Shown here: piece by piece, positions 44,198 to 57,874 of the stretch | How the letters are laid out: the number at the start of each line of letters is the position of its first letter | How positions within the stretch are numbered: the first letter of the stretch is position 1 | Origin: Patescibacteria group bacterium | GTDB lineage: Bacteria > Patescibacteriota > Microgenomatia > Levybacterales > UBA12049 | DNA length: 64,000 nt | NCBI GenBank assembly: GCA_023484045.1 | Contig: JAMDAA010000022.1 | Span: forward strand, 4,201 to 68,200 | Direction: 5' to 3' | Translations under genes and position numbers: made by a program | The notes under the pieces: model-generated | Seen by the model: only the letters and a program-made list of their open reading frames with translations | Databases searched by the model: none | Told to the model about the DNA's origin: nothing

Positions 44198-44304
44198 ACA
44201 TATTCATTGTATATAATTGATAAAAATAGTATGTATAACTCATTTTTATACGAAAAAATGTTGACTATTGACATATAGATTATTTTTTGATACTATCTAA
44301 GCAA

Positions 44305-45516
44305 ATGATTCACTCTTTTACTTGCAAAAACTTTTATTCATTCCCTAAGAAAACAACCATTAGCTTTGTTGTTAATGAAAATGCTCCTGATAATAATGGA
44401 TATCTTAAAACTCCTTCAGGGGTGCGCCTTTCTAAGGCAGAAATTGTCATTGGTTCTAACGCTTCAGGGAAAACCAATCTTCTTAAAATAGTGCCGTTTT
44501 TAAAATGGATTATCCTTGACTCGTTTAACATAAATCCATCAGCACCCATACCGGTACAACCATTTATGTTTAGTGATTTAAAAAACAAACCAACAGAACT
44601 TTCTGTGGAGTTTGAAATTGATGGTAATATCTATCTGTACGAATTTGTTCTGAATAGCAAGAGAATCATATCGGAAAACCTTAAAGTTAAAAATAAAACT
44701 AAGAAACGTGTTACTTATAAAATGCTTTTTTCTCGAAATTGGGACGAAGAAAGCGAAAAATATAACTTTGAAGGCAAAAATTTCGATTTACCAAAAGGGT
44801 TTGAAAATTTACTTCGTTCAAATGCGAGTGTTATTGGTTCTGCTTCGCGATTGAACCATAAAGAAAGTCAAGAAATTGCAAAATATTGGCAACAAGTAGA
44901 GACAAATGTTATTGAAGCTGGTTGGATAGGCGATCATTTATTACTTAATGCGACTCAACAATTGCCAGAGGTATTTAACTTCTATAGCGAAAATGAGTCG
45001 TTAAAGAAGGAAGCTGAAAAGCTATTATCCCGTTTTGACCTGGGTTTAGCAGGATTTGAGATAGAAAAACAAAAACAGGAAAACGGTTTTTTACTTAATA
45101 TAAAGGCTACGCATTTATTGAATGGGCAAAAGCATTATCTTCCTGTTCAATATGAATCTTCGGGTACAAAACAGCTTTTTGTGCTTTTAAAGACAATTCT
45201 GCAGGTTTTAACTAAAGGTGGCGTAGCAATATTGGATGAGTTTGATGTTAATTTGCACCCGGAAATGGTTCTATCGCTTTTTGAATTATTTATTCAACCT
45301 GAAACCAATCCTAAAAATGCCCAAATATTATTTAGCACCCATAGCCACCTAGTCTTAAGCAAGCTAGACAAGTACCAGATAATTCTAACTGAAAAAAATG
45401 ATGATGGTGCAAGTGAATCCTGGCGTTTAGATGAAATGTCTGGAGTTCGTGCAGACGATAATTATTACTCAAAATATATTGCTGGTGCATATGGAGCCAT
45501 CCCAAAAATTAATTAA
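44305..45516 (+). CDS. AAA_21-type ABC/ATPase, AbiLi/RloA-like defence ATPase
   Basis: Walker A GSNASGKTN, Walker B AILDEFDVNLHP, ABC-like SSGTKQL. Promoter-like TTGACA..TACTAT immediately upstream. Confidence 0.7.
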   Translation: MIHSFTCKNFYSFPKKTTISFVVNENAPDNNGYLKTPSGVRLSKAEIVIGSNASGKTNLLKIVPFLKWIILDSFNINPSAPIPVQPFMFSDLKNKPTELSVEFEIDGNIYLYEFVLNSKRIISENLKVKNKTKKRVTYKMLFSRNWDEESEKYNFEGKNFDLPKGFENLLRSNASVIGSASRLNHKESQEIAKYWQQVETNVIEAGWIGDHLLLNATQQLPEVFNFYSENESLKKEAEKLLSRFDLGLAGFEIEKQKQENGFLLNIKATHLLNGQKHYLPVQYESSGTKQLFVLLKTILQVLTKGGVAILDEFDVNLHPEMVLSLFELFIQPETNPKNAQILFSTHSHLVLSKLDKYQIILTEKNDDGASESWRLDEMSGVRADDNYYSKYIAGAYGAIPKIN

Positions 45517-45527
45517 ATGGAAATACT

Positions 45528-46064
45528 ATGTCGAGAACAAATCCTTACAAGAAAAAAAGACGCTCGGCAAACAAGACAATTCTTATTTACAGTGAGGGAT
45601 TACATGAAGAAGTTTTCCTAAAGCACCTAAGAGGTTTATACTCCCAGAACAAAAATGTTGCAATTACTGTCAAAAAAGGTAAAGGCGGAACTGCTGATTC
45701 TCTTGTAATTCAGGCGAATAAAACATTAGGCGCCTTTGATAGAAGAGTCGTGGTATTAGATAACGATAAAAACAAATCCGAAATGCAAAAAGCTAGGCAA
45801 GAAGCAGAAAATAGAAAAATTGAATTATTCGAACATACACCTTGCCTTGAAGCGGTACTATTATCCATATTACGCAAAGGACAAAACTTCAAACAGAAAA
45901 GTTCCAGTTGGTGTAAACAAGAATTTGAATCAAAATATATTGATAGAAAAAAGAGAGGTGAAGTAGACGAATATGTAAAGCTTTTTCCTACGAGTCTACT
46001 GAATAAAGAAATTTCGAAAGTTGCCGAGTTAAAAAGGTTGATTTCTCTTATGCTTGGGGAGTGA
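45528..46064 (+). CDS. RloB/AbiLii-like (DUF4276, TOPRIM-like) partner protein
   Basis: 178 aa. N-terminus KKRRSANKTILIYSEGLHEEVFLKHL fits the RloB pattern (basic stretch plus ILIvcEG..tE). Lies 12 nt after the ATPase. Confidence 0.6.
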   Translation: MSRTNPYKKKRRSANKTILIYSEGLHEEVFLKHLRGLYSQNKNVAITVKKGKGGTADSLVIQANKTLGAFDRRVVVLDNDKNKSEMQKARQEAENRKIELFEHTPCLEAVLLSILRKGQNFKQKSSSWCKQEFESKYIDRKKRGEVDEYVKLFPTSLLNKEISKVAELKRLISLMLGE

Positions 46065-46078
46065 TTAGAAAGCTAAGT

Positions 46079-46208
46079 CTTCGATCCTTGTGGCCAAGAT
46101 GAATCACCAAATAAGTTTACCCTGAGCGAAGCCGAAGGGCTCCCTAACAGTAAGAGCCTGTCCTGAGCGAACGAAGTGAGTCGAAGGATACTTTCACCAC
46201 AAGGATCA
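46079..46208. repeat. intergenic palindromic repeat with CCTGAGCGAAGCCGAAGG motifs
   Basis: Inverted repeat GATCCTTGTGG...CCACAAGGATC flanks two copies of the CTGAGCGAA.CGAAG motif. The same motif occurs at 11158-11205 and 57851-57868. Confidence 0.45.
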
Positions 46209-47480: not shown

Positions 47481-47500
47481 CTGGTGAGCCGGACAGGATT
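47481..47500 (-). other. duplicated 3'-end fragment of tRNA-Lys(TTT), T-loop to CCA
   Basis: ctggtgagccggacaggatt is identical to 56109-56128, the 3' end of the intact tRNA-Lys. Confidence 0.7.
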
Positions 47501-47556: not shown

Positions 47557-47808
47557 CTACATTTCTAGATTCAAAAATCTTTTCTTCATAAATGCGATGC
47601 CTGATCCTGTTTTAAGGTATCGTTCAAATGCCAATGCTTGCCTTTTTGTTTTAAACGCACAATGCCATTCAAGTTGATAATTCAAGTTTGATTTAGTAGA
47701 AAGAACTTTACCTGTCGAGTGTTTTTTTAGACGATTTTTTAAATCAGGGGTATATCCAACATAGTATCTGTTAGTGATGTTATTTCTTAAAATGTAAGTA
47801 TAATACAT
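47557..47808 (-). CDS. small GIY-YIG nuclease-family protein (copy 1)
   Basis: 83 aa. YYTYILRNNITNRYYVGYTPDLKNRLKKH carries the GIY and YIG elements, plus a downstream conserved Arg/Glu. Confidence 0.75.
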   Translation of the reverse strand: MYYTYILRNNITNRYYVGYTPDLKNRLKKHSTGKVLSTKSNLNYQLEWHCAFKTKRQALAFERYLKTGSGIAFMKKRFLNLEM

Positions 47809-47846
47809 TTTAGACAGCTTGCTATCTGTAGCTTTAGCGAAAGATA

Positions 47847-47986
47847 GTGAACGTTTACGAAAAAATTCGAACCTATTTTAAAAATTAATTACGTCTTGCG
47901 TCAGCTCCTCGCTCGTCCGGCTTCGCCGTCCTCGCTTCGTCGCTATTTCGCTTTCGGCGCGGCGCCCCCACCCGCCGCGCCTCCGC
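47847..47986. repeat. inverted repeat A (about 140 bp), partner A' at 54285-54423
   Basis: The reverse complement matches 54285-54423 with at least one mismatch. The GC-rich body contains the T-loop-like aataggttcgaat. Confidence 0.8.
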
Positions 47987-48720
47987 TCATTTTTTGCGCG
48001 CGCGATTTTCGGGAACTTCGTTCCCCTATAATACCACAAACTGAATCGGCCAAAATGGTGGAAATTGGCCGATTCCAAGTACAAAAACTTCCGGTTCCAC
48101 CACTTTTTTGGTTCTCGCCAAGCCAAACGAAAGAACGAACTGAAGATTTTTCCGGCGGTTCCCGCCGGTTTTTTTGTTTCGCCCCTTCCAAACACTTTAC
48201 TATTGTAGAAGAGTACAAGAGTAGAAGATTAAAGTAGAGGTTATCAAATTTCTATCAACCCACCCACCCGACTGAAATTGTTGGCGGCGACCCCATTCAT
48301 CGCGCGCTGGGCGCCCTAGGGGGCGCCTGCGACAACGGTTTTACTTTTCTAAGAGTTCCTACAGCGCGTCCCTCGCCCCGCTGCGGCGGGGCTTGTCTTT
48401 AGTTTTGACTTTTAAGGCTCGCGCGTTCTGGGGTGTCCGCTTTTCGCCCCCGCCTTCTTTATTTGACCCCTTCCTGCTATTCAGGGCTCGGGTTCACGCT
48501 TAAGGAAATAAACTTTAGAACCCTCGCTCCTGATCCCAATGGCTCGCCCCGCGTTTTCTTTCCCTTAAAGATTATCAAGCGGGGCTCGCGTTAGTCGGGA
48601 ACGCTCGTTAAAGTAAGTGGTAACTCGAAGGGTTTTCTGTCGCGTTCCCTCCTTTTTAGCTGGGTGCTATTGAGGGGGCGGGGGCGGCGGAGCCGCCAAC
48701 AACAAAATGAAAAAAAAAGA
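47987..48720 (+). ncRNA. GC-rich ORF-poor region with many stable hairpins; candidate large structured ncRNA (strand uncertain)
   Basis: About 60% GC against a ~35% background. Only overlapping short ORFs on both strands. Hairpins GGGAACuucgGTTCCC, GAATCGGCCAA..TTGGCCGATTC, GGCGCCCuagGGGGCGCC, GCCCCGCugcgGCGGGGC, GGCGGagCCGCC, and a terminator-like CCGGCGGttcCCGCCGG followed by T7. Confidence 0.4.
48152..48176 (+). terminator. intrinsic-terminator-like hairpin inside the GC-rich region
   Basis: CCGGCGG ttc CCGCCGG followed by TTTTTTTG. Confidence 0.45.
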
Positions 48721-48753
48721 TTTTCTTGTCCCATTTTGATACACTGTTAATAT

Positions 48754-49911
48754 ATGGCTGATGATATTCCCCAAGATCAGACACAAACAACGGAGACAAC
48801 AAGCCCAACAGTTCCACCAACTGACCAACCGCCAGTGGAAACTTCACCAGTGCAACCAACATCAGAACAATCATCAACAAATACAGTTTCTTCAGAAACT
48901 CTAAATATTCCTAATCCTGAACCAGTTGCTCCCGCAACTCCCGAACCACAAACACAACCCGCCGAAGCTAAAACAGAAACTCCTGCACAAATAGAAACAC
49001 AACCGCCTGTTTCTCCTCCTGTTTTTGATATTCCGGCATTACATTTTCCGTTCTCCGGTAATTTTCCAGTGACTTTTTCTTGTGGTCAGCAATCAGATAA
49101 CGAAGAAATCAAAAAGAAATTTCAGGAGTGGGGAATTGTTGGCCACAATGGTTTAGATTTTGGATTAACTTCTGGAACCGAAGTTTATCCATGTGATTCT
49201 GGAAAAGTTGTCCAGTCAGGAGATAACGGCGATTTTGGAACATCAATCACTATTCAACATTCGTGGGGACAATCAATTTACGGACATCTTCAAGAAACTA
49301 GAGTCAAAGAAGGCGACGAAATTCAAGTCAACAACGTAATTGGTCTTTCCGGTTCTTCCGGTGCCGCATTTGGTGATCATCTGCATTTTGCCATCAAACC
49401 AAACAATCCTGATTTAAATAATGGTTATCTTGGTTTTATCGACCCTGCGCCTTATTTATCTTTACCATCTCAAAAAGAAGAAACAACCGAAACACCACCA
49501 ATTCAAACCCCACCCGTTGAAGAACAAATGCCGCTGGAAGAAATTAAACCACCGGAACCAGTTATTCATCAAGAAGAGCCGACAATTAACATTGAGCCGG
49601 AAAAACCAGCAGAACAATCCCAAATTCCTCAACCGAGCAATGAAGAAATTCAAAAACAAGTGGATGAAAAACTAAAAACAGAGTTAGATGCCAGAAGATT
49701 AAAAGCTAATCAGGCCAGACAAACAAAGAGAGAAGAAAATTTAATGAAGATTGAAAAACTAATCGAGGAGAAAAAACTAATTAACAATGACGATGTACGA
49801 GAACTTCTTCATGTTTCCCAATCTACAGCCACTAATTACTTAGAGGATTTAGTAAAACGAGGAACAATTAAACTCAATGGCAAGGGTAAAGCAACGATTT
49901 ACAGTTATTAA
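48754..49911 (+). CDS. M23 (LytM-type) peptidase with Pro/Thr-rich N-terminal region and C-terminal winged-helix-like domain
   Basis: HNGLDFGLTSGTEVY...GHLQE...GDHLHFAIKP M23 motifs. N-terminal PT-rich low complexity. C-terminal VRELLHVSQSTATNYLEDLVKRGTI is HTH-like. Confidence 0.75.
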   Translation: MADDIPQDQTQTTETTSPTVPPTDQPPVETSPVQPTSEQSSTNTVSSETLNIPNPEPVAPATPEPQTQPAEAKTETPAQIETQPPVSPPVFDIPALHFPFSGNFPVTFSCGQQSDNEEIKKKFQEWGIVGHNGLDFGLTSGTEVYPCDSGKVVQSGDNGDFGTSITIQHSWGQSIYGHLQETRVKEGDEIQVNNVIGLSGSSGAAFGDHLHFAIKPNNPDLNNGYLGFIDPAPYLSLPSQKEETTETPPIQTPPVEEQMPLEEIKPPEPVIHQEEPTINIEPEKPAEQSQIPQPSNEEIQKQVDEKLKTELDARRLKANQARQTKREENLMKIEKLIEEKKLINNDDVRELLHVSQSTATNYLEDLVKRGTIKLNGKGKATIYSY

Positions 49912-49963
49912 CCCAACATTCAACAACAACAAATATACTCAAGTAATATTTCTATCCAATTAT

Positions 49964-50314
49964 TTATTTTGTTGCTGTGGGTGCCGGATTTGTTGCGGTT
50001 GTTGGTTCAGAGATCGTTTTAGCGACTACTCCGACATTAAACATTTGAGGAAATCTTAATCTGTAAAGGCTCTCCAGAAAATCGGTTCCGGCATAACCTG
50101 CAAGTAAAGATATTCGCCAATCACCATCAGCAATTAATCCTGAAACCACGCCAACAATACCGGAAACCAACATTGTTACCCCAAAATATTGCCAGTGAAT
50201 CTTAAACTCATCAGGGTTTTGAGTTTGTTTTAGTATTCCTACTAATCCGCGAACTAATCCTCCGGCCAGTCCAGTTACTAAATGATAAATTTGAAATTCA
50301 AGTTGTAATTGCAT
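49964..50314 (-). CDS. small two-TM membrane protein (holin-like)
   Basis: 116 aa. Two TM helices and a charged C-terminal tail. Inside the element, near the M23 peptidase. Confidence 0.35.
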   Translation of the reverse strand: MQLQLEFQIYHLVTGLAGGLVRGLVGILKQTQNPDEFKIHWQYFGVTMLVSGIVGVVSGLIADGDWRISLLAGYAGTDFLESLYRLRFPQMFNVGVVAKTISEPTTATNPAPTATK

Positions 50315-50628
50315 TAAGTTTTAGTCACCTCCTTAGATTTTTGTGCTTTTGTACTATTCTGCAAGAGTGCAAACCCACCTTTGCCAAACTTTATTACTTG
50401 ACCAATTTTTGAAATAGTTGAAGTGCTAACTGGAATTTCAGCGGCAATTTCTTCGTATGTTTTGCCTTCCAAAATTAGCTTTGCTATTTTTAGCCTTTGG
50501 GCAAAATCAAGTGTTTTCTCCGGTGAAAACAAGTCTTCGATAAAGATAGTTAAATTCTTTTTGGTTTTGATTTTGAAAAAAGAATTAATAACCAATTGAG
50601 TATCTTTGTTTAGATTTATTTTGTCCAT
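50314..50628 (-). CDS. TrpR-like (YerC/YecD family) DNA-binding protein
   Basis: 104 aa. RLKIAKLILEGKTYEEIAAEIPVSTSTISKIGQVIKFG matches the Trp-repressor-like HTH family. Confidence 0.6.
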   Translation of the reverse strand: MDKINLNKDTQLVINSFFKIKTKKNLTIFIEDLFSPEKTLDFAQRLKIAKLILEGKTYEEIAAEIPVSTSTISKIGQVIKFGKGGFALLQNSTKAQKSKEVTKT

Positions 50629-50629
50629 A

Positions 50630-53542
50630 TTAAACCTTCTTTTTCGCTTTAATTAATAAAACAACTGTAATAAGAATGATAAACGCCATTATTCCGATGA
50701 CTGATATTACTTGTGGATTAAGAAAAGCGTTTGTTTGCTTAACTTGAATGTTTAAATCAAATTCTTTGACATCTCCAGTTAGGTTTACTGTTTGTTCTCC
50801 TTGATAGTTAGCATAAGCAATGTTTATTTTATGTTGACCAGATTCCACATTAGAAAACTGAGCAATTCCGTTTTTATCGGTTGTGGTTTCTTGAACTTTT
50901 GAATGAATAGTAACTTTTGCACCTGGAACAGGTCTGTTTGTCGTATCCACAACCTTAATTTTGACTGTATAGCCATTTTGTTTAACAGCTTGTTTTTCTT
51001 CTTCTGTTTGAGCTGGAACAGTTTTTTGTTCGGTGATCTTAGTTTCTAAATTTCCATTGAATAGACTCTGTAGTGGAGCTGGCAAGTTGTTGTTTATTGA
51101 AAGATAAAATACAGGTTGAGTATATGTGTTTCCTGCACTATCCTTTAGTGCAATTGTACTTTGGTAATGCCCGTCAATTAACGGGAATGGAACAGTAATA
51201 TAAAATCTGGATGACTTTTTGTCGTTTGAACTGTCTTGAATGTTGGACAAAGAATAATCTTGGGTTAAATAGTCAGCATAAGTTTTATCGTCTTTTTGTC
51301 TTTTTAATGTCAGCGTAAGTGTTTGTGGTCCAGACGAAACTTTATCAAAAGTATCGGTCGAATTATTACTATTTGTCTTTATTGAACCCTGATAACTGTC
51401 GACTGCTAATCCTGAGAATGAAGGTGTTCGATTTAAAATACTTATGTTGTAAATTCCTCCGGAATTCACTATCGATACATTTGCAACGGCTAACTCTGAA
51501 ATAGCAGGTGAAGTTTTGTCAATATAAAAATCGGCAGATTGAGAAGTTGAATTAGATTGAGCATCATAAGTAGTAACTGTCCAAGTATGTTTTCCCTCAG
51601 TCAGTTCGGTATTGTTTAAATCTTTAAAGTAAACATGAATTTCGTCGTTTGAACTATCACTATCATTTTCGTTTATGAACTCGATTTTTACAGAGTTGTC
51701 ATCTTTCCATACATAATCGGCTGATCCATTTCCTGAAGTTGGAATACCAGAAGTTGAAAGGCTACGGTTCTTTCCTGAATCTAACGATACAGAATATGAG
51801 GATAAACCACTTCCAGAATCAGAAGACTTTTTGAAAACTAAAGTGGGTTTTGTATCTTCTTTGCTAAAACCCGTTGGAGAAGATAGGGATCCAGCCGTGG
51901 GTGCAGTTGTATCAACTCTAAAATCTGGACTGCCTCCCATGGAAACCCACGATCCGTTACCTGCTGAATTATTAATCCTTGCCTGCCAATGATAGGAAGT
52001 TCCGCTTGTTAACCCGGTAACTGTTACGCTTCCGGTTACGGCTGTTCCCGTAAAAGCGACGGCACTCCCCGTATTTGTGACTGAATTAGTGAAAGCGGTT
52101 CCGTTTGGCTGTATCTCTATTTGAGGAGTAAGGGAATCAGAAGAATTACTTGATGACATGTTAAACTTTAAAATAATTGTTCCTTCGTTTGTATATGCTC
52201 CTGAGGAAATTGCTGTTGTTCCATCTGTTTTATATTGAGCCAATGCGGAAGGTGCCGAGGGCAATATAAACTCATAGACTCCATCATCAGGGGCAGAACC
52301 CTGTGGAACTATTGTTCCGGCAAAATCTGAAGTAAGACTTAAATCCGTACCAGCATTAATTGCCGGGCTAGAAGATGTTAAATGAAAATCTGAACTACTT
52401 CTATTCAAAAATGAAGGTTCTACAAAAGTGCTATGACTATCCCATCCTGTATCTGTTTTCCAGGTTGCGAAATCAACAAATGCGTTATTATATCTAAATT
52501 GACCCTGTGCTGAACCATCTGTGTAGTAAATATTGTAATCAACATCGTTATCGCTCGCTGTATTATTGAGGTCGTCGCTAGCCCTAGTATTATACGCAAA
52601 GACATTATTTCGGATTACTACTCCACTAACAGTGGTTATTGTACTTCCTGGGCCAAATACAAACCCGTGCATATTACCATAACTGGTATTGTTATAAATA
52701 TATGAAACCCCATTCGCTCTTAAATGTTCTTCTACCCATACTCCATTCCAACCCGCTCCATAAGTTATGTTGTACCGAAAAATAAAACCGTTAGAGTTTA
52801 CGTCAAAATGAGCATTGCTCTTATAACCATTGTAAAAAGTGTTCTTTTCAACTAAGGCGTTGATTGTATCTCCCGTATATAAGTTATCACTCCAATCAAG
52901 AAAACCTTGGTTATCATTTAGAGTACTTCCTGTAATTATTGGAGCTGACAAATGGTTAAGCCAAACTCCGATTTGACCAATACTTGTATGATCTAGACCG
53001 TTGTTATAAACATGACTGCCATCTAAGCGAAAACCAGTTGATCGATAACTTGAGCTTTGACCTTCGATTCTAAGTCCAAAAACACCGTTATGATCAATAT
53101 CTGACGAATAAATTTTAAAGTTACTTATTGGGGTAAAATTAGTTGCGTAACTCATCCAAACTCCAGTGTAGTAGTTATTAGTGATCTTCATATTCTGAAG
53201 AGTTATATTTGAAGGTGTGTTCCAGGTTGGTTTTAATCCAAAACCTCTGCCGTACTGTCCGCCTGCTCCGTCAATTTGAAGTCCGTTAAAGGTTATATTA
53301 GATCTGTCATCACAAGATACAACATCATATCTGGCTCCAATTTCCATAGTGTGTGTTGAAGGATTTGCCCCGTCAGAAGCCCAGTAATACACAATATGAG
53401 CAGTGCTGTCATAGTAAAACATTTTTGCGCCTGTTATTGCCGCCAAACTTCCCACAGGTGTAGCCATTACGTTGTCTTCCAGAAGAAGATAAATACCAAT
53501 AGATGCCGTGTAGCTTGCTTTATAAATATTGCCACTTTGCAA
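50630..53542 (-). CDS. about 1000-aa surface protein: right-handed beta-helix (pectate-lyase-like) repeats, Ig/fibronectin-like and carboxypeptidase-regulatory-like domains, C-terminal TM anchor
   Basis: 970-aa ORF from a TTG. N-, S- and G-rich beta-helix repeats (NNVFAYN.., NNTSYGN.., VIRNNVF). C-terminal VISVIGIMAFIILITVVLLIKAKKKV. The true N-terminus with the signal peptide lies upstream in other frames (see 53467-53938). Confidence 0.7.
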   Translation of the reverse strand: MQSGNIYKASYTASIGIYLLLEDNVMATPVGSLAAITGAKMFYYDSTAHIVYYWASDGANPSTHTMEIGARYDVVSCDDRSNITFNGLQIDGAGGQYGRGFGLKPTWNTPSNITLQNMKITNNYYTGVWMSYATNFTPISNFKIYSSDIDHNGVFGLRIEGQSSSYRSTGFRLDGSHVYNNGLDHTSIGQIGVWLNHLSAPIITGSTLNDNQGFLDWSDNLYTGDTINALVEKNTFYNGYKSNAHFDVNSNGFIFRYNITYGAGWNGVWVEEHLRANGVSYIYNNTSYGNMHGFVFGPGSTITTVSGVVIRNNVFAYNTRASDDLNNTASDNDVDYNIYYTDGSAQGQFRYNNAFVDFATWKTDTGWDSHSTFVEPSFLNRSSSDFHLTSSSPAINAGTDLSLTSDFAGTIVPQGSAPDDGVYEFILPSAPSALAQYKTDGTTAISSGAYTNEGTIILKFNMSSSNSSDSLTPQIEIQPNGTAFTNSVTNTGSAVAFTGTAVTGSVTVTGLTSGTSYHWQARINNSAGNGSWVSMGGSPDFRVDTTAPTAGSLSSPTGFSKEDTKPTLVFKKSSDSGSGLSSYSVSLDSGKNRSLSTSGIPTSGNGSADYVWKDDNSVKIEFINENDSDSSNDEIHVYFKDLNNTELTEGKHTWTVTTYDAQSNSTSQSADFYIDKTSPAISELAVANVSIVNSGGIYNISILNRTPSFSGLAVDSYQGSIKTNSNNSTDTFDKVSSGPQTLTLTLKRQKDDKTYADYLTQDYSLSNIQDSSNDKKSSRFYITVPFPLIDGHYQSTIALKDSAGNTYTQPVFYLSINNNLPAPLQSLFNGNLETKITEQKTVPAQTEEEKQAVKQNGYTVKIKVVDTTNRPVPGAKVTIHSKVQETTTDKNGIAQFSNVESGQHKINIAYANYQGEQTVNLTGDVKEFDLNIQVKQTNAFLNPQVISVIGIMAFIILITVVLLIKAKKKV

Positions 53543-53938
53543 ACTCCAACCAGTAACAAGATCGGTCCCTGTGATACGGGTTTGGAAGCTGATGCACCGT
53601 AAGAGTTGTAGGTAATGGGGTTACCTGTGGAACCACCAGTATTTACATACCAAGTTTCTCTCCAAACATCACCTTTCTTTAGTGATACTTGATCTCCAGC
53701 AACAAAACCAAACCCAGCCAGTTTAGCCATCGTTTTAAATGGTCCTGTGCTTCCAGTTGTGTGAGTCTGTTCAAGCCCGTCATAAGAATCATACCCATCA
53801 GTTTGACTAACGTAATAAGTTGCAGCAAAAGCTTTAGTATTTACAACGAAGAATAATGAAACGAATACTAATAGAGAACAAAAAGTTTTTAGGAGAAAAT
53901 TTAGCCGCGGCCTTTTACTCTCTCTCTCTCTCTCTCAT
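53467..53938 (-). other. out-of-frame 5' part of the surface-protein gene: ATG, (GA)9, signal peptide, first beta-helix turns
   Basis: ATG at 53938-53936 is followed by (AG)9 and then an in-frame TAA. The +1 frame encodes SKRPRLNFLLKTFCSLLVFVSLFFVVNTKAFAATYYVSQTDG... continuing into the 87-aa ORF at 53467-53730. A second shift of -1 near 53560-53600 joins this to the 970-aa frame. Confidence 0.55.
53918..53935. repeat. (TC/GA)9 dinucleotide tract at codons 2-7 of the surface-protein gene
   Basis: ctctctctctctctctct on the plus strand. With 9 units the ATG frame stops immediately. With 10 units the ATG would be in frame with the signal peptide. Confidence 0.9.
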
Positions 53939-54120
53939 TTTTGATCCCGAAGTTGGGAGCAATTTGTTTAAACATAACATATTAGATGTGTGAAATTATA
54001 TTTCCCCTACTATTACTATTAAATATAGAAACAATTTCTAGCAAATGCAATAGATAGTTAAGCTTAAAACGTGCCTATTTTTGCTATTGTTTTCTTTTTC
54101 TGTTTTTTGTATATTAAAAA

Positions 54121-54209
54121 TGGACTCAGTTTTGACGGATTGTGTTTTTTAATGGCGCAATCGGACAGATAGGACACAATCCTAACTGAGTCCACCGGTT
54201 GCGCCATTT
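54121..54209. repeat. interleaved inverted repeats, potentially an H-type pseudoknot
   Basis: X TGGACTCAGTT (54121-31) pairs with AACTGAGTCCA (54185-95). Z GGATTGTG (54137-44) pairs with CACAATCC (54175-82). Y TAATGGCGCAA (54150-60) pairs with TTGCGCCATTA (54199-209). The order is X Z Y Z' X' Y'. Confidence 0.5.
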
Positions 54210-54284
54210 AAGTATTAAAAACTATAGGGAAAAAGTTCTTTAAAATTTTTGCGTTTTTTCTTTAGGATTCGAGCTGACAGTTTT

Positions 54285-54423
54285 CGGAGGCGCGGCGGGT
54301 GGAGGCGCCGCGCCGAAAGCGAAATAGCGACGAAGCGAGGACGGCGAAGCCGGACGAGCGAGGAGCTGACGCAAGACGTAATTAATTTTTAAAATAGGTT
54401 CGAATTTTTTCGTAAACGTTCAC
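54285..54423. repeat. inverted repeat A', partner of 47847-47986
   Basis: Reverse complement of A. Contiguous with B'. Confidence 0.8.
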
Positions 54424-54526
54424 CAGTAAAGAAATTGAAGCAGAAGTGGGGGCAGCGCGAGCCGCGCCCCCAATCGCGGCGAGCGCTGCAAAGGGATATT
54501 TTAACGCTGGCCGGAGTTGCCGGTTA
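54421..54526. repeat. inverted repeat B', perfect partner of 56010-56116
   Basis: tcaccagtaaagaaattgaagcagaagtgggggcagcgcgagccgcgcccccaatcgcggcgagcgctgcaaagggatattttaacgctggccggagttgccggtt equals the reverse complement of 56010-56116. Confidence 0.85.
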
Positions 54527-54614
54527 GAATGAAAGGACAGAAGAAAAAACGCAAAAATTAACAAGGTAGAATTTTAAAGAACTTTTTAAGAGTACAAAAG
54601 TACTAAACTAAAGT

Positions 54615-56009
54615 ATGAATAAATACATAGCATATTGCCGAAAATCAACCGACGAGAAAGACAAACAGGTGTTATCTATTGAAGCGCAAATTGCAGAACT
54701 CAAAGAATTTGCTAAACGTGATCATTTAGAAGTTGTTGAATTTATTACCGAAGCCAAAACAGCTAAAATGCCAGGGCGTGAGCAATTTGCGCTAGTCTTA
54801 AAGAAAATTGAAAAAGGAGAAGCCCAAGGCATTATAAGTTGGCACCCAGACCGTTTAGCCAGAAATTCAATAGATGGAGGTAAAGTTATCTATTTATTGG
54901 ATACCGGAAAGTTAATAGATTTGAAATTTCCGTCTTTTTGGTTTGAAAATACTCCCCAAGGAAAATTTATGTTATCCATTGCCTTCGGCCAGTCAAAATA
55001 TTATGTGGATAATTTATCGGAAAATGTAAAGCGTGGTAATCGCCAAAAACTTCGTCGTGGTGAGTGGCCTTCAAAAGCACCATACGGATATATTAATAAT
55101 CCTAAAACCAGAGCCGTTGATGTTGACCCCGAATTATCCAAAGTTGTTAAAAAAGCTTTTCAGCTTTTTTCCGAAGGCAATAAGTCGTTTACGGAAATTT
55201 CAAACTTTATGTTTAAGTTTGGGATGAAGCGGGAAAGTTGTGGGAAACCGATTAAAGTTGATCAAATAAAACGGATGTTATCAAACAAATTTTATGTAGG
55301 AATTTTAAAGTATGCCGATGAATATTATGAAGCTTCCCATAAATGTTTCATCTCCAAACAACTTTTTAATGATGTCCAAAAGCAGGTGGAAAAAATCTTG
55401 CGTCCTAGGCAACACGGCCACGATTTTGCTTTTTCCGGTTTAGCCACTTGTGGAGAGTGCGGCGCCGCAATCACGGCAGAACAACACGTAAAACATTACA
55501 AAAATGGTAAATCCCAAACTTTTATCTATTACCGCTGTACTAAAAAGTTAAAGCCCTGTACACAAAAGTATTTACCAGAAGGTGATTTAGAAGAGCAATT
55601 AAAAAAAGTGGTGGGTGATTGCGGCTTGCACCAGGATTGGGAACCCTATTTTGAAAAATGGATGGCCGAAGATGAGAAAAAAGATCAAGCTAATTCAGAC
55701 ACAGAATTAAGAAGGCTTGGCGAGAACCAAAAGGAAATTGAAACAAAACTTAATCGCTTACTTAATGGTTATTTAGATCAAGTGGTGGAACCGGAAGTTT
55801 ACAAACAAAAGAAAAATGAATTATTTGACGAAAAACTAAAACTTACCGAGCAAATTGCCAAAGTTTCAAAGATTGGTTCGTCTTGGCTCGAACCTATGAG
55901 AGAATTCGTAATTAGCGCCTTGCAGGCGCAAAAAATCGCGCGCGTAAAAAATGAGTGCCATGATTTGGCGATCATGGCAAAAACTGTCGGCTCGAACTAT
56001 TCTTTATTT
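54615..56009 (+). CDS. large serine recombinase (resolvase/invertase catalytic domain plus recombinase and zinc-ribbon-like extension)
   Basis: N-terminus YIAYCRKSTDEKDKQVLSIEAQ with the catalytic Ser in the Y.R.S context. About 465 aa to the start of repeat B. The frame stays open through B and antisense tRNA-Lys to 56276. C-terminal Cys pairs CGECG..CTKK. Confidence 0.8.
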
Positions 56010-56116
56010 AACCGGCAACTCCGGCCAGCGTTAAAATATCCCTTTGCAGCGCTCGCCGCGATTGGGGGCGCGGCTCGCGCTGCCCCCACTTCTGCTTCAA
56101 TTTCTTTACTGGTGAG
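56010..56116. repeat. inverted repeat B (107 bp) abutting and overlapping the tRNA-Lys CCA end
   Basis: Perfect reverse complement of 54421-54526. Contains the strong hairpin GGGGGCGCGgctCGCGCtgCCCCC. Ends in CTGGTGA, shared with the tRNA 3' terminus. Confidence 0.85.
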
Positions 56117-56184
56117 CCGGACAGGATTCGAACCTGTGACCAATTGCTTAAAAGGCAACTGCTCTACCGCTGAGCTACCGGCCC
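56110..56184 (-). tRNA. tRNA-Lys (anticodon TTT) with encoded CCA
   Basis: Acceptor GGGCCGG/CCGGCTC, anticodon stem GTTGC/GCAAT, loop CTTTTAA, T-loop TTCGAAT, 3' ACCA. Confidence 0.85.
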
Positions 56185-56272
56185 GCCCACCACGCAAGCC
56201 GAGCATTGCGAGGCGTTGCGGGCAGGCCCGCTCGCCCCATCTTCACACTCAACTTTTGCAGCTTTTTAAATT

Positions 56273-56524
56273 CTAGTTTTCAAAAATTTTCTTCCAAATC
56301 CAGTTTTAAAATATTTTTCTCTTTTAATCGCCTTTTCTTTATCTAAGCACGCTTCGTAATATATTAGTCTTAAAGGTAATCTGCCTTTTGTTGCTAAGCT
56401 TTTTCTTTTTCTGTGAACTTCTAACCTTTTCTTTAAATCTTCTGTATATCCAGTATAAAGCTTACCGTCTTTTTCACTTTTAAGAACATATGTATAAACA
56501 TTACCTTTTCTCGTGATTATATCA
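56273..56524 (-). pseudogene. GIY-YIG nuclease-family gene (copy 3) lacking a canonical start codon
   Basis: Minus-strand frame encodes ITRKGNVYTYVLKSEKDGKLYTGYTEDLKKRLEVHRK...REKYFKTGFGRKFL with an in-frame TAA immediately upstream and no ATG, GTG or TTG. Not in the ORF track. Lies 88 bp upstream of tRNA-Lys on the same strand. Confidence 0.5.
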
Positions 56525-57547: not shown

Positions 57548-57838
57548 ATGAATAAGCCTCAGAGTTGGTATCTTTACATGCTTCTTTGCGATCAGAAATC
57601 TTTTTATGTTGGGATTACTCCTAATCCGAAAGAAAGAATAGCCGAACATAGAAATAAAGAGTGCATCGCGACGAAAGAATTTTCTGATTTTAAAATGGTT
57701 TATTGTGAAAAGTATTTGAATAAATTTGAAGCAGTAAAAAGAGAAAAACAAATTAAAGGTTGGAGTAGAACAAAGAAGCAAATGCTTATTGAAGGAAAAT
57801 TAGGGATAAATACAAGCACTGAGTTTGTCGAAGTGTAA
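57548..57838 (+). CDS. small GIY-YIG nuclease-family protein (copy 2)
   Basis: 96 aa. WYLYMLLCDQKSFYVGITPNPKERIAEH, with a downstream conserved Arg and Glu. Starts 27 nt after tRNA-Glu. Confidence 0.75.
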   Translation: MNKPQSWYLYMLLCDQKSFYVGITPNPKERIAEHRNKECIATKEFSDFKMVYCEKYLNKFEAVKREKQIKGWSRTKKQMLIEGKLGINTSTEFVEV

Positions 57839-57874
57839 AGAGGATGAGAAGTTTACTCTGAGCGAAGCCGAAGA

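What the first reader, a model, noticed from the sequence alone, without database searches (positions are those of the whole stretch)
54615..56276. Recombinase reading frame runs through repeat B and antisense tRNA-Lys without a stop
The recombinase ORF has no stop at the end of its catalytic and recombinase domains, around 56009. It stays open for another ~90 codons through repeat B, the antisense tRNA-Lys and on to 56276.

The inverted copy B'A' would instead terminate the same peptide 18 codons after ...SISLLV, as seen in the 60-aa ORF 54382-54564 (ending ...SISLLVNVYEKIRTYFKN). If the element excises so that B joins A, the recombinase C-terminus would change. The crossover site would then lie inside the recombinase's own 3' coding region, coupling integration state to recombinase structure and perhaps directionality.

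Alternatively the tail is non-coding and the protein ends by an unseen mechanism.
Basis: inference. Interest (0 to 1): 0.5.

Follow-up and report, generated by a model that had tools for sequence, protein, structure and literature searches.

The report
Serine integrase gene spanning its attachment site
The long reading frame is the integrase of an 8.3-kb mobile element inserted at the end of a tRNA-Lys gene, with the DNA crossover point inside the integrase's own last codons, so the protein's tail depends on what the element is joined to; the same unusual layout recurs in dozens of related uncultured bacteria.

Summary
ORF 54615-56276 (553 aa) is a large serine recombinase. It runs through a 107-nt perfect inverted repeat (56009-56115 vs 54420-54526) and the antisense tRNA-Lys(UUU).

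It is the integrase of an 8.27-kb element (47847-56115) inserted at the tRNA 3' end. The crossover core GTGA (56112-56115) lies at codons 500/501.

- Codons 466-500, inside repeat B, are real coding sequence: the frame is always open, a beta-hairpin and helix are predicted, and the peptide is conserved.
- The 53 codons after the core are junction-dependent read-through. They are unconserved and predicted disordered; in relatives this part is 2-300 aa.
- The upstream copy A'B' looks like an intact attP. Its outer arm carries the tRNA T-loop motif TTCGAAC, shifted 4 bp outward.
- Joined to that arm, the ORF ends 12 codons later (NVYEKIRTYFKN). Natural homologues with this ending exist.

The layout is family-wide in Microgenomates: 54 of 60 assessable loci end in an antisense tRNA (16 anticodons), and 47 of 51 have the repeat.

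Open points: why an inverted attP is kept next to the gene, and whether the tail affects activity. The literature I could search does not describe tRNA-targeting serine integrases.

The parts
47847..47850 (+). Left junction of the element (attR-like, c'|a'). This is the 4-nt core GTGA shared with the two other junctions.
   Evidence: Identity with the internal site starts here. Homology to related elements at other tRNAs starts at 47844-47847.
47847..47985 (+). Distal copy of repeat A (a'). It holds the P-type arm GTGA-ACGTTTACGAAAAAATTCGAACC, a stop for the attP-form ORF and a GC-rich hairpin.
   Evidence: 139 nt, 99% inverted repeat with 54285-54423. Arm consensus from 48 loci.
47986..48124 (-). 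Short patches of the recombinase 3' region (RLGENQK, QVVEPEV, KIARAKNE codons), inverted relative to the intact gene. A terminator-like hairpin follows at 48152-48168 (+).
   Evidence: The same patches are present in about 30 related loci.
48125..54229 (.). Cargo segment: M23 peptidase (48754-49911, +), small membrane protein (49964-50314, -), TrpR-like HTH protein (50314-50628, -) and a 970-aa beta-helix/Ig surface protein (50630-53542, -).
   Evidence: Gene order is conserved in L001 and L004. Cargo differs in other clades.
54230..54262 (+). Short inverted repeat u', which pairs with 54541-54587 and brackets the internal attP block.
   Evidence: I3, I4. It recurs in many loci.
54285..54526 (+). 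Internal attP-like site A'B' (a|b), core TCAC at 54420-54423, in inverted orientation relative to both end junctions.
54615..56114 (+). Constant part of the large serine recombinase (aa 1-500): resolvase domain 5-151, recombinase domain 172-260, zinc ribbon 273-332, coiled coil about 340-443, C-terminal beta-hairpin and helix 459-481, then a linker.
   Evidence: Pfam, AF2, Foldseek hits to the SPbeta, PhiC31, Bxb1 and LI integrases, homologues.
56009..56115 (+). Repeat B (b'). It encodes aa 466-500 and doubles as the element-side arm of the right junction. It contains a GC-rich hairpin (about 56063-56086) and the TCAATTTC arm motif (SIS codons).
56112..56115 (+). Right junction core GTGA (attL-like, b'|t'), equal to tRNA positions 71-74 on the other strand.
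56115..56276 (+). Junction-dependent 53-codon read-through into host DNA (antisense tRNA-Lys and beyond), plus the stop codon.
   Evidence: pLDDT about 30. The equivalent extension is 2-300 aa in relatives and follows whichever tRNA is present.
56110..56184 (-). tRNA-Lys(UUU), intact. The sequence from within the core (about position 73) through the CCA is supplied by the element.
55956..55979 (-). Hairpin plus T-run inside the recombinase coding region (CHDLAIMA / KIARVKNE codons). It is terminator-like on the tRNA strand.
   Evidence: This is inference only.

Best explanation
The ORF is the integrase gene of an 8.27-kb integrative element (47847-56115). The integrase is a large serine recombinase, and the element sits at the 3' end of tRNA-Lys(UUU).

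The gene lies at the right edge of the element and reads outward. Its last 35 element-encoded codons (repeat B) encode the end of the folded protein and a linker. The same DNA also serves as the element-side arm of the attachment site.

Strand exchange takes place in the 4-nt core GTGA, most likely at the GA (tRNA positions 71-72), between codons 500 and 501. Everything after codon 500 therefore comes from whatever DNA is joined there.
- In the integrated state this is 53 fortuitous codons of antisense tRNA and host DNA.
- When joined to arm A (the attP configuration) it is 12 codons, NVYEKIRTYFKN, then a stop.

The upstream block A'B' looks like a complete attP kept in inverted orientation. 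Its A arm carries the tRNA T-loop motif TTCGAAC 4 bp further from the core than the real tRNA does. This is the attP-versus-attB geometry known for serine integrases, and it would explain how the family can use many different tRNAs.

Shown: the anatomy, the element boundaries, the coding status of aa 466-500, and the family-wide recurrence. Inferred: the crossover position, excision to a circle, and the absence of any function for the extension.
For: - **Protein family.** The domains and fold are those of large serine recombinases.
- **Element boundaries.** Homology to related elements at tRNA-Lys(CUU), Glu(CUC), Glu(UUC) and Val(GAC) begins at 47844-47847 and ends at 56104-56118.
- **Shared core.** All three junctions share only GTGA. 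The shortest shared core in any locus is 2 nt (L026).
- **Recurrence.** 54 of 60 assessable loci run into an antisense tRNA, covering 16 anticodons. 47 of 51 have the repeat, with median length 103 nt and median identity 98.4%.
- **Arm motifs.** The tRNA arm has GGA.TCGAACC at positions 9-19 and the A arm has AAATTCGAACC at 13-23 (48 loci). This fits the roughly 5-bp shift of the zinc-ribbon motif between attB and attP (PMC3783163).
- **Tail coding.** Frame 0 has a stop in 0 of 41 loci, against 8-25 of 41 in the other frames. Codons 466-475 vary mostly at the third position, and indels are in frame. pN/pS is 0.64 for the tail and 0.24 for the body.
- **Structure prediction.** A beta-hairpin and helix reach aa 481 with pLDDT 77-83. 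pLDDT is about 30 after aa 505.
- **attP-form tails** occur in nature: P0004/L003, P0020/L085 and L084.
Against: - No excised circle junction and no empty attB were recovered.
- No directionality factor was identified.
- The B arm carries its motif at the tRNA-like distance, so calling A|B a clean P-P' site is not secure.
- A circle made by end-to-end excision would hold two identical inverted attP sites. Integration through the second should give tRNA->B->recombinase, which was never seen (0 of 54).
- Translation of the 53-codon extension and the 3' end of the mRNA are unknown.
- There is no experimental evidence of activity.
Confidence: 0.8

Rival explanations
1. The recombinase is a DNA invertase. 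The 107-nt inverted repeats are its inversion sites, so the enzyme flips its own gene. This would switch its C-terminus and its promoter context, working as a phase switch rather than as an integration module.
For: - The gene is flanked by perfect inverted repeats whose cores are inverted.
- A second repeat pair flanks the cargo.
- Both tail types exist in databases.
Against: - The gene orientation is the same in all 54 loci that have a tRNA.
- The K1 (distal) and K2 (proximal) markers show the cargo in a single orientation in about 30 loci.
- The unit is found at different tRNAs with sharp homology boundaries, so it moves as a whole.
- The protein has the coiled-coil and zinc-ribbon architecture of integrases, not of small invertases.
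Confidence: 0.08
2. The junction-dependent C-terminus is functional. The integrated-form tail and the attP-form tail would give the enzyme different activity or directionality, as in Mx8 IntP/IntX, replacing or supplementing a directionality factor.
For: - There is a precedent in the tyrosine integrase of Mx8, where integration creates a new 3' end and alters integrase behaviour (PMC6070905).
- The attP-form tail x[YF]E[KQ]IRT[YF]FK is conserved across clades.
- No directionality factor was found.
Against: - Integrated-form extensions are 2-300 aa, unrelated in sequence and set only by the adjacent tRNA.
- They are predicted disordered.
- Conservation of the attP-form tail coincides exactly with the TTCGAAC DNA motif, so a DNA-level constraint is sufficient to explain it.
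Confidence: 0.2
3. The repeat and the read-through are assembly artefacts, such as a chimeric join or a palindromic mis-assembly at a repeat.
For: Contigs from the same samples break at the repeats: L097 ends 30 nt into a', and L095 starts just past the tRNA.
Against: The same architecture appears in independent assemblies from different studies and assemblers, at different tRNAs and with divergent sequences. These include a closed genome, CP011210.
Confidence: 0.01
4. The mRNA ends before the stop codon, for example at the GC hairpin and U-rich stretch in repeat B, or through collision with tRNA transcription. The protein would then be made from a non-stop message and be kept scarce by ribosome rescue. 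The frame beyond about 56090 would never be translated.
For: - A GC-rich hairpin is kept in structure but not in sequence across clades, and is followed by a T-rich stretch on the sense strand.
- There is no conserved stop after the core.
- Transcription converges with a tRNA gene.
Against: - The terminator scan did not call it.
- The fold z-scores are weak, -1.9 and -1.1.
- The frame stays open up to the core in 41 of 41 loci, which would not be needed if translation stopped earlier.
Confidence: 0.1

Closest known systems
Large serine integrases of phages and islands (SPbeta SprA/YokA, PhiC31, Bxb1, Listeria A118/LI)
   Same: The domain order is the same: resolvase catalytic domain, recombinase domain, zinc ribbon and embedded coiled coil. 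Full-length Foldseek matches reach E = 9e-19. The attachment arms carry one motif shifted by about half a helical turn between the P-type and B-type arm (PMC3783163).
   Different: The target is the 3' end of many different tRNA genes; the searched literature says this was not known for this enzyme class (PMC4383910; PMC7192596). The ORF crosses the crossover site. An intact inverted attP is kept beside the gene. No directionality factor was seen.
Myxococcus phage Mx8 IntP/IntX, and SSV-type integrases (tyrosine recombinases whose ORF spans attP)
   Same: attP lies inside the integrase coding sequence. Integration into a tRNA gene gives the integrase a new 3' end (PMC6070905; PMC4383910).
   Different: Those are tyrosine recombinases, and a large C-terminal part is exchanged (Mx8) or the gene is split (SSV). 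Here the enzyme is a serine recombinase, only the residues after aa 500 change, and the folded protein is untouched.
Yeast 2-micron plasmid (FLP/FRT in two inverted repeats)
   Same: If the element excises, the circle would have two unique segments (recombinase and cargo) separated by two identical inverted repeats, each holding a recombination site. This comparison rests on my own knowledge of the 2-micron plasmid.
   Different: No flip isomers were seen. The recombinase is serine type, not tyrosine type. The element is integrative and no replication genes were found.
tRNA-targeting genomic islands with tyrosine integrases (Islander type)
   Same: The integrase gene sits at the island edge next to a tRNA gene that stays intact, and the cargo is variable.
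   Different: There is no displaced tRNA fragment as a direct repeat; only a 2-10 nt core is shared. The integrase is of the serine family.

Membership tests
Large serine recombinase (serine integrase) | N-terminal resolvase-type catalytic domain with the conserved Arg/Ser motif | tested here: met
   PF00239 matches aa 5-151 with E = 2.1e-20. R9, S11 and other residues are invariant in 67 sequences.
Large serine recombinase (serine integrase) | C-terminal recombinase domain, zinc ribbon and coiled coil | tested here: met
   PF07508 and PF13408 match. Long helices at 340-443 flank the ribbon. Foldseek finds the SPbeta, PhiC31, Bxb1 and LI integrases.
Large serine recombinase (serine integrase) | attP and attB arms share a distal motif that lies about 5 bp closer to the centre in attB | tested here: met
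   TCGAAC lies at 13-18 in the tRNA arm and at 17-22 in the A arm (48 loci), compared with PMC3783163. The B arm does not fit cleanly.
Large serine recombinase (serine integrase) | Exchange at a 2-bp central dinucleotide, without target duplication | tested here: inconclusive
   The shared core is 2-10 nt, 4 nt here and 2 nt at minimum (L026). No duplication is seen. The cleavage site itself cannot be read from sequence.
Large serine recombinase (serine integrase) | Catalyses attP x attB integration, with excision needing a directionality factor | not testable with these tools
   No assay is possible. No candidate factor is conserved among the cargos.
Integrase whose ORF spans attP (Mx8 / SSV type) | The crossover site lies inside the integrase coding sequence, so integration changes the 3' end | tested here: met
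   The core sits at codons 500/501. The tail is 53 aa or 12 aa depending on the partner. Both forms occur in natural homologues.
Integrase whose ORF spans attP (Mx8 / SSV type) | The changed C-terminus changes enzyme behaviour | not testable with these tools
   Only indirect evidence is available: the extension is unconserved and predicted disordered.
Invertible-segment switch (Hin/Gin type, or FLP-like flip-flop) | Both orientations of the segment occur among members or within populations | tested here: not met
   None of 54 loci has the recombinase flipped. Cargo orientation markers are fixed in about 30 loci. None of 9 metagenome matches shows a flipped or circular junction.
tRNA-targeting genomic island (Islander signature) | An intact tRNA at one end and a displaced tRNA fragment as a direct repeat at the other end | tested here: not met
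   The 20-nt tRNA-Lys fragment at 47481-47500 lies outside the homologous unit, which starts at 47847. It is associated with a GIY-YIG gene.

The most novel reading that the evidence does not exclude
This would be a previously undescribed class of serine-integrase element, specialised on the universal T-loop and acceptor end of tRNA genes.

Its free form would carry two identical inverted attP sites, laid out like the 2-micron plasmid. The internal attP would be a live second site that can exchange with other tRNA genes. Locus L068, where the recombinase sits between two real tRNA-Glu genes, may show this. Such exchange would drive inversions or capture events between tRNA loci in these small genomes.

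The junction-dependent C-terminus and the antisense tRNA context would set when the enzyme is made, or in which direction it works, without a separate directionality factor.
Probability: 0.25. Interest if true: 0.8.

Novelty: new variant of a known kind. Interest (0 to 1): 0.6.

Why it matters
Serine integrases are major genome-engineering tools. Surveys of genomic islands state that they were not known to target tRNA genes (PMC4383910; PMC7192596).

A large family (368 confirmed matches in one scan of species-representative genomes) uses the tRNA 3' end through a T-loop-mimicking arm. This would add a new target logic, in which one conserved RNA-gene motif gives access to many sites.

It would also give a natural example of the attP/attB motif-shift rule. 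And it describes a mobile element type that carries cargo genes between tRNA loci in Candidate Phyla Radiation bacteria, whose mobile elements appear little described in the literature I could search.

The conserved internal inverted attP is a concrete, testable puzzle about how directionality and expression are controlled.

Tried and rejected
1. **The 20-nt direct repeat as an element end.** I first took the repeat of the tRNA-Lys 3' end (47481-47500 and 56109-56128) to mark the element ends. I rejected this because homology to related elements starts only at 47847. The fragment sits beside a GIY-YIG gene flanked by its own inverted repeat.
2. **Independent cassettes.** I considered that the recombinase and cargo segments are separate cassettes, each with a palindromic site. 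I rejected this because the cores flanking each segment are inverted (TCAC...GTGA), so conservative recombination could only invert them, not excise them.
3. **Metagenome scan for the circle junction or a flipped cargo** (a' plus K1 pattern). It gave 9 hits, and all were ordinary integrated left ends.
4. **Exact-protein look-ups of flanking genes to find an empty site**. They returned only short contigs identical to the window, which break at the repeats.
5. **Rfam search for the non-tRNA targets in L010, L016 and L044**. Nothing was found.
6. **RNA folding of repeats A and B**. The z-scores, -1.1 to -2.2, are not convincing on their own. A weak sucC-RNA hit in repeat A (24.8 bits against a threshold of 50) was dismissed.
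7. **Literature searches** for serine recombinases at tRNA genes in CPR/Patescibacteria. No description was found.

Full report
**The observation**

ORF 54615-56276 (+, 553 aa) is real and has no stop before 56274. It overlaps, in antisense, tRNA-Lys(UUU) at 56110-56184. Pfam places a resolvase catalytic domain at aa 5-151, a recombinase domain at 172-260 and a recombinase zinc ribbon at 273-332.

Repeat B (56009-56115) is a 107-nt, 100% inverted copy of 54420-54526 (BLAST E = 1.9e-53). Repeat A' (54285-54423) abuts B' with a 4-nt overlap. It has its own 139-nt, 99% inverted copy at 47847-47985.

The minus-strand 60-aa ORF ends ...SISLLVNVYEKIRTYFKN. The alternative ending is therefore 12 codons after SISLLV, not 18.

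**A family feature, not an artefact**

Thousands of homologues exist. Their C-termini share GSNFFL.NRRLSA.L.FPFAALSAEGGAASAAP...SIS.LV. After that they continue with translations of different antisense tRNAs (GFEP, GIEP, GLEP = TTCGAACC). A few end instead in NAYEQIRTFFKN-type tails.

In 85 loci (metagenome contigs, 80 species-representative genomes of Microgenomates/Patescibacteria, and the window):
- 54 of 60 assessable loci run into the 3' end of an antisense tRNA. These cover 16 anticodons for Lys, Glu, Gln, Pro, Val, Ile, Leu, Tyr, Arg and Ser.
- 47 of 51 have the inverted repeat flanking the recombinase gene. Its median length is 103 nt and its median identity 98.4%, although the repeat sequence differs between loci.
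- The extension after the boundary is 2-300 aa, with a median of 26.
- Nearly all loci with enough flank also have the second repeat pair A/A', which encloses 1-8 kb of variable cargo.

**Element boundaries and junctions**

Related elements sit at tRNA-Lys(CUU), Glu(CUC), Glu(UUC) and Val(GAC). Their homology to the window begins at 47844-47847 and ends at 56104-56118. The mobile unit is therefore 47847-56115.

The three junctions are host|A at 47847, A|B at 54420-54423 and B|tRNA at 56112-56115. They share only the core GTGA. The shortest shared core in any locus is 2 nt, which corresponds to the GA of GTGA (L026). On the tRNA this is positions 71-74, so the element supplies the discriminator base and the CCA, and the tRNA stays intact.

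**The arms follow serine-integrase rules**

Across 48 loci the tRNA arm shows GGA.TCGAACC at positions 9-19 from the core. The A arm shows AAATTCGAACC at 13-23. The host arm on the far side shows no conservation.

A shared distal motif that lies about 5 bp closer to the centre in attB than in attP is the published geometry for the Listeria integrase and other serine integrases (PMC3783163). Arm A is therefore a P-type arm that mimics the T-loop, and the tRNA is the B-type arm.

On this reading A|B is attP, B|tRNA and A|host are the hybrid sites, and tRNA|host was attB. One caveat: the B arm carries its GAAATCGA-like motif at the tRNA-like distance, so the typing is not fully clean.

**Is the tail coding?**

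Up to the core, yes.
- In 41 loci frame 0 never has a stop in the tail, while the other five frames have stops in 8-25 loci.
- Codons 466-475 vary mainly at the third position (entropy 0.99 / 0.77 / 1.58). Indels are in frame.
- pN/pS is 0.64, against 0.24 for the body of the protein. Constraint is weaker but present.
- Codons 476-493 lie over a GC-rich hairpin that is kept in structure but not in sequence. They show no codon-position signal.
- The SIS codons coincide with the arm motif.
- AlphaFold2, run with 67 sequences, predicts strands 459-465 and 468-473 and a helix 475-481 at pLDDT 77-83. pLDDT is about 69 up to aa 500 and about 30 from aa 505 on.
- The model matches full-length SPbeta, PhiC31, Bxb1 and LI integrases.

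So the fold ends about 16 residues inside repeat B. The linker up to aa 500 is encoded by the attachment arm. The 53 residues after the core are junction-dependent read-through.

**The alternative ending**

When B is joined to A, the frame reads V-NVYEKIRTYFKN-stop. This form occurs naturally in P0004/L003, P0020/L085 and L084. Its conservation across clades coincides with the TTCGAAC motif, so a DNA-level constraint is enough to explain it.

The idea that integration changes an integrase's C-terminus has a precedent in the tyrosine integrase of Mx8 (PMC6070905). I found no serine-integrase example in the literature I could search.

**What remains unexplained**

Every member keeps an intact, inverted A|B site 35-115 nt upstream of the start codon, bracketed by a further short inverted repeat (54230-54262 and 54541-54587).

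End-to-end excision would give a circle with two identical inverted attP sites. Integration through the second site, or inversion, should then give a tRNA->B->recombinase arrangement, which was never seen. The recombinase orientation is fixed in all 54 loci. Two short copies of recombinase 3' sequence, K1 next to the distal A and K2 next to the proximal A, mark a single cargo orientation in about 30 loci.

A metagenome scan for the circle or flip junction found only integrated left ends. In L068 the recombinase lies between two real tRNA-Glu genes, which hints that the internal site can exchange with a second tRNA. L085 shows two modules chained at one tRNA.

**Novelty**

Two surveys of genomic islands state that serine integrases were not known to target tRNA genes (PMC4383910; PMC7192596). 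My searches for such elements in CPR bacteria found nothing. The enzyme kind is known. The target logic, the ORF-spanning site in a serine integrase and the internal inverted attP together make this a new variant.

Noticed in passing
Proteins P0001, P0007, P0023, P0051: The ~900-aa 'homologues' are read-through fusions. A complete recombinase of a sister subfamily runs, at its own crossover point, into residue ~122 (LAFGQSKYYVDNL) of a recombinase of the window's subfamily. A sister element therefore appears to integrate into the catalytic-domain coding region of this family's recombinase gene.
   Followed up: no
window 47481-47500 and 47557-47808: A 20-nt copy of the tRNA-Lys 3' end lies 8.6 kb from the tRNA, next to a GIY-YIG gene that is flanked by an inverted repeat (tatctttc[t/g]ctaaagctaca). 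It lies outside the recombinase element. It may mark an older GIY-YIG insertion at the tRNA.
   Followed up: partly
window about 56276-56520 (-), 57548-57838 (+); L001 15575-15963; L004 8868-9122: Small GIY-YIG genes sit beside tRNA genes repeatedly. In L001 the 5' part of tRNA-Asp is duplicated on either side of one. The 56276-56520 reading frame is from my own reading of the sequence and was not run through Pfam.
   Followed up: no
window 47986-48009 and 54268-54284; about 30 related loci: Each copy of repeat A is flanked on its inner side by a short inverted copy of recombinase 3' sequence. K1 (KIARAKN codons) is always at the distal copy and K2 (KTVGSN codons) at the proximal one. In the gene itself, K1 and K2 flank the 24-nt hairpin at 55956-55979.
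   Followed up: partly
L068 9802-9875 and 11516-11588: In this locus the recombinase is flanked by two real tRNA-Glu genes (UUC and CUC) in inverted orientation, with no A arm on either side.
   Followed up: partly
L085 6467-11542: Two recombinase modules are chained at one tRNA-Lys. The order is tRNA|B1, recombinase 1, B1'|A', a 1.2-kb cargo, A|B2, recombinase 2, B2'|A'. A type I restriction-modification system follows.
   Followed up: partly
L017, L040, L080, P0043, P0001 (tail region): The same 7-aa in-frame insertion, PYVPQGK, occurs in the GC-hairpin part of the tail in different clades.
   Followed up: no
L010 11492 onward; L016 8795 onward: In two loci the recombinase tail abuts a shared sequence that is not a tRNA (...CACCGGTGGAACC..TTCGA.AGTG, peptide HRWN). 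Rfam finds nothing there. It may be another target type.
   Followed up: partly
window 44287-46064: An AAA_21 (AbiEii-like ATPase) gene and an RloB-like gene pair, a defence-type pair, lie just left of the element.
   Followed up: no
window 46113-46137 and 57849-57873: A 25-nt direct repeat, AAGTTTAC[C/T]CTGAGCGAAGCCGAAG (96% identity), lies on either side of the whole tRNA/element region.
   Followed up: no
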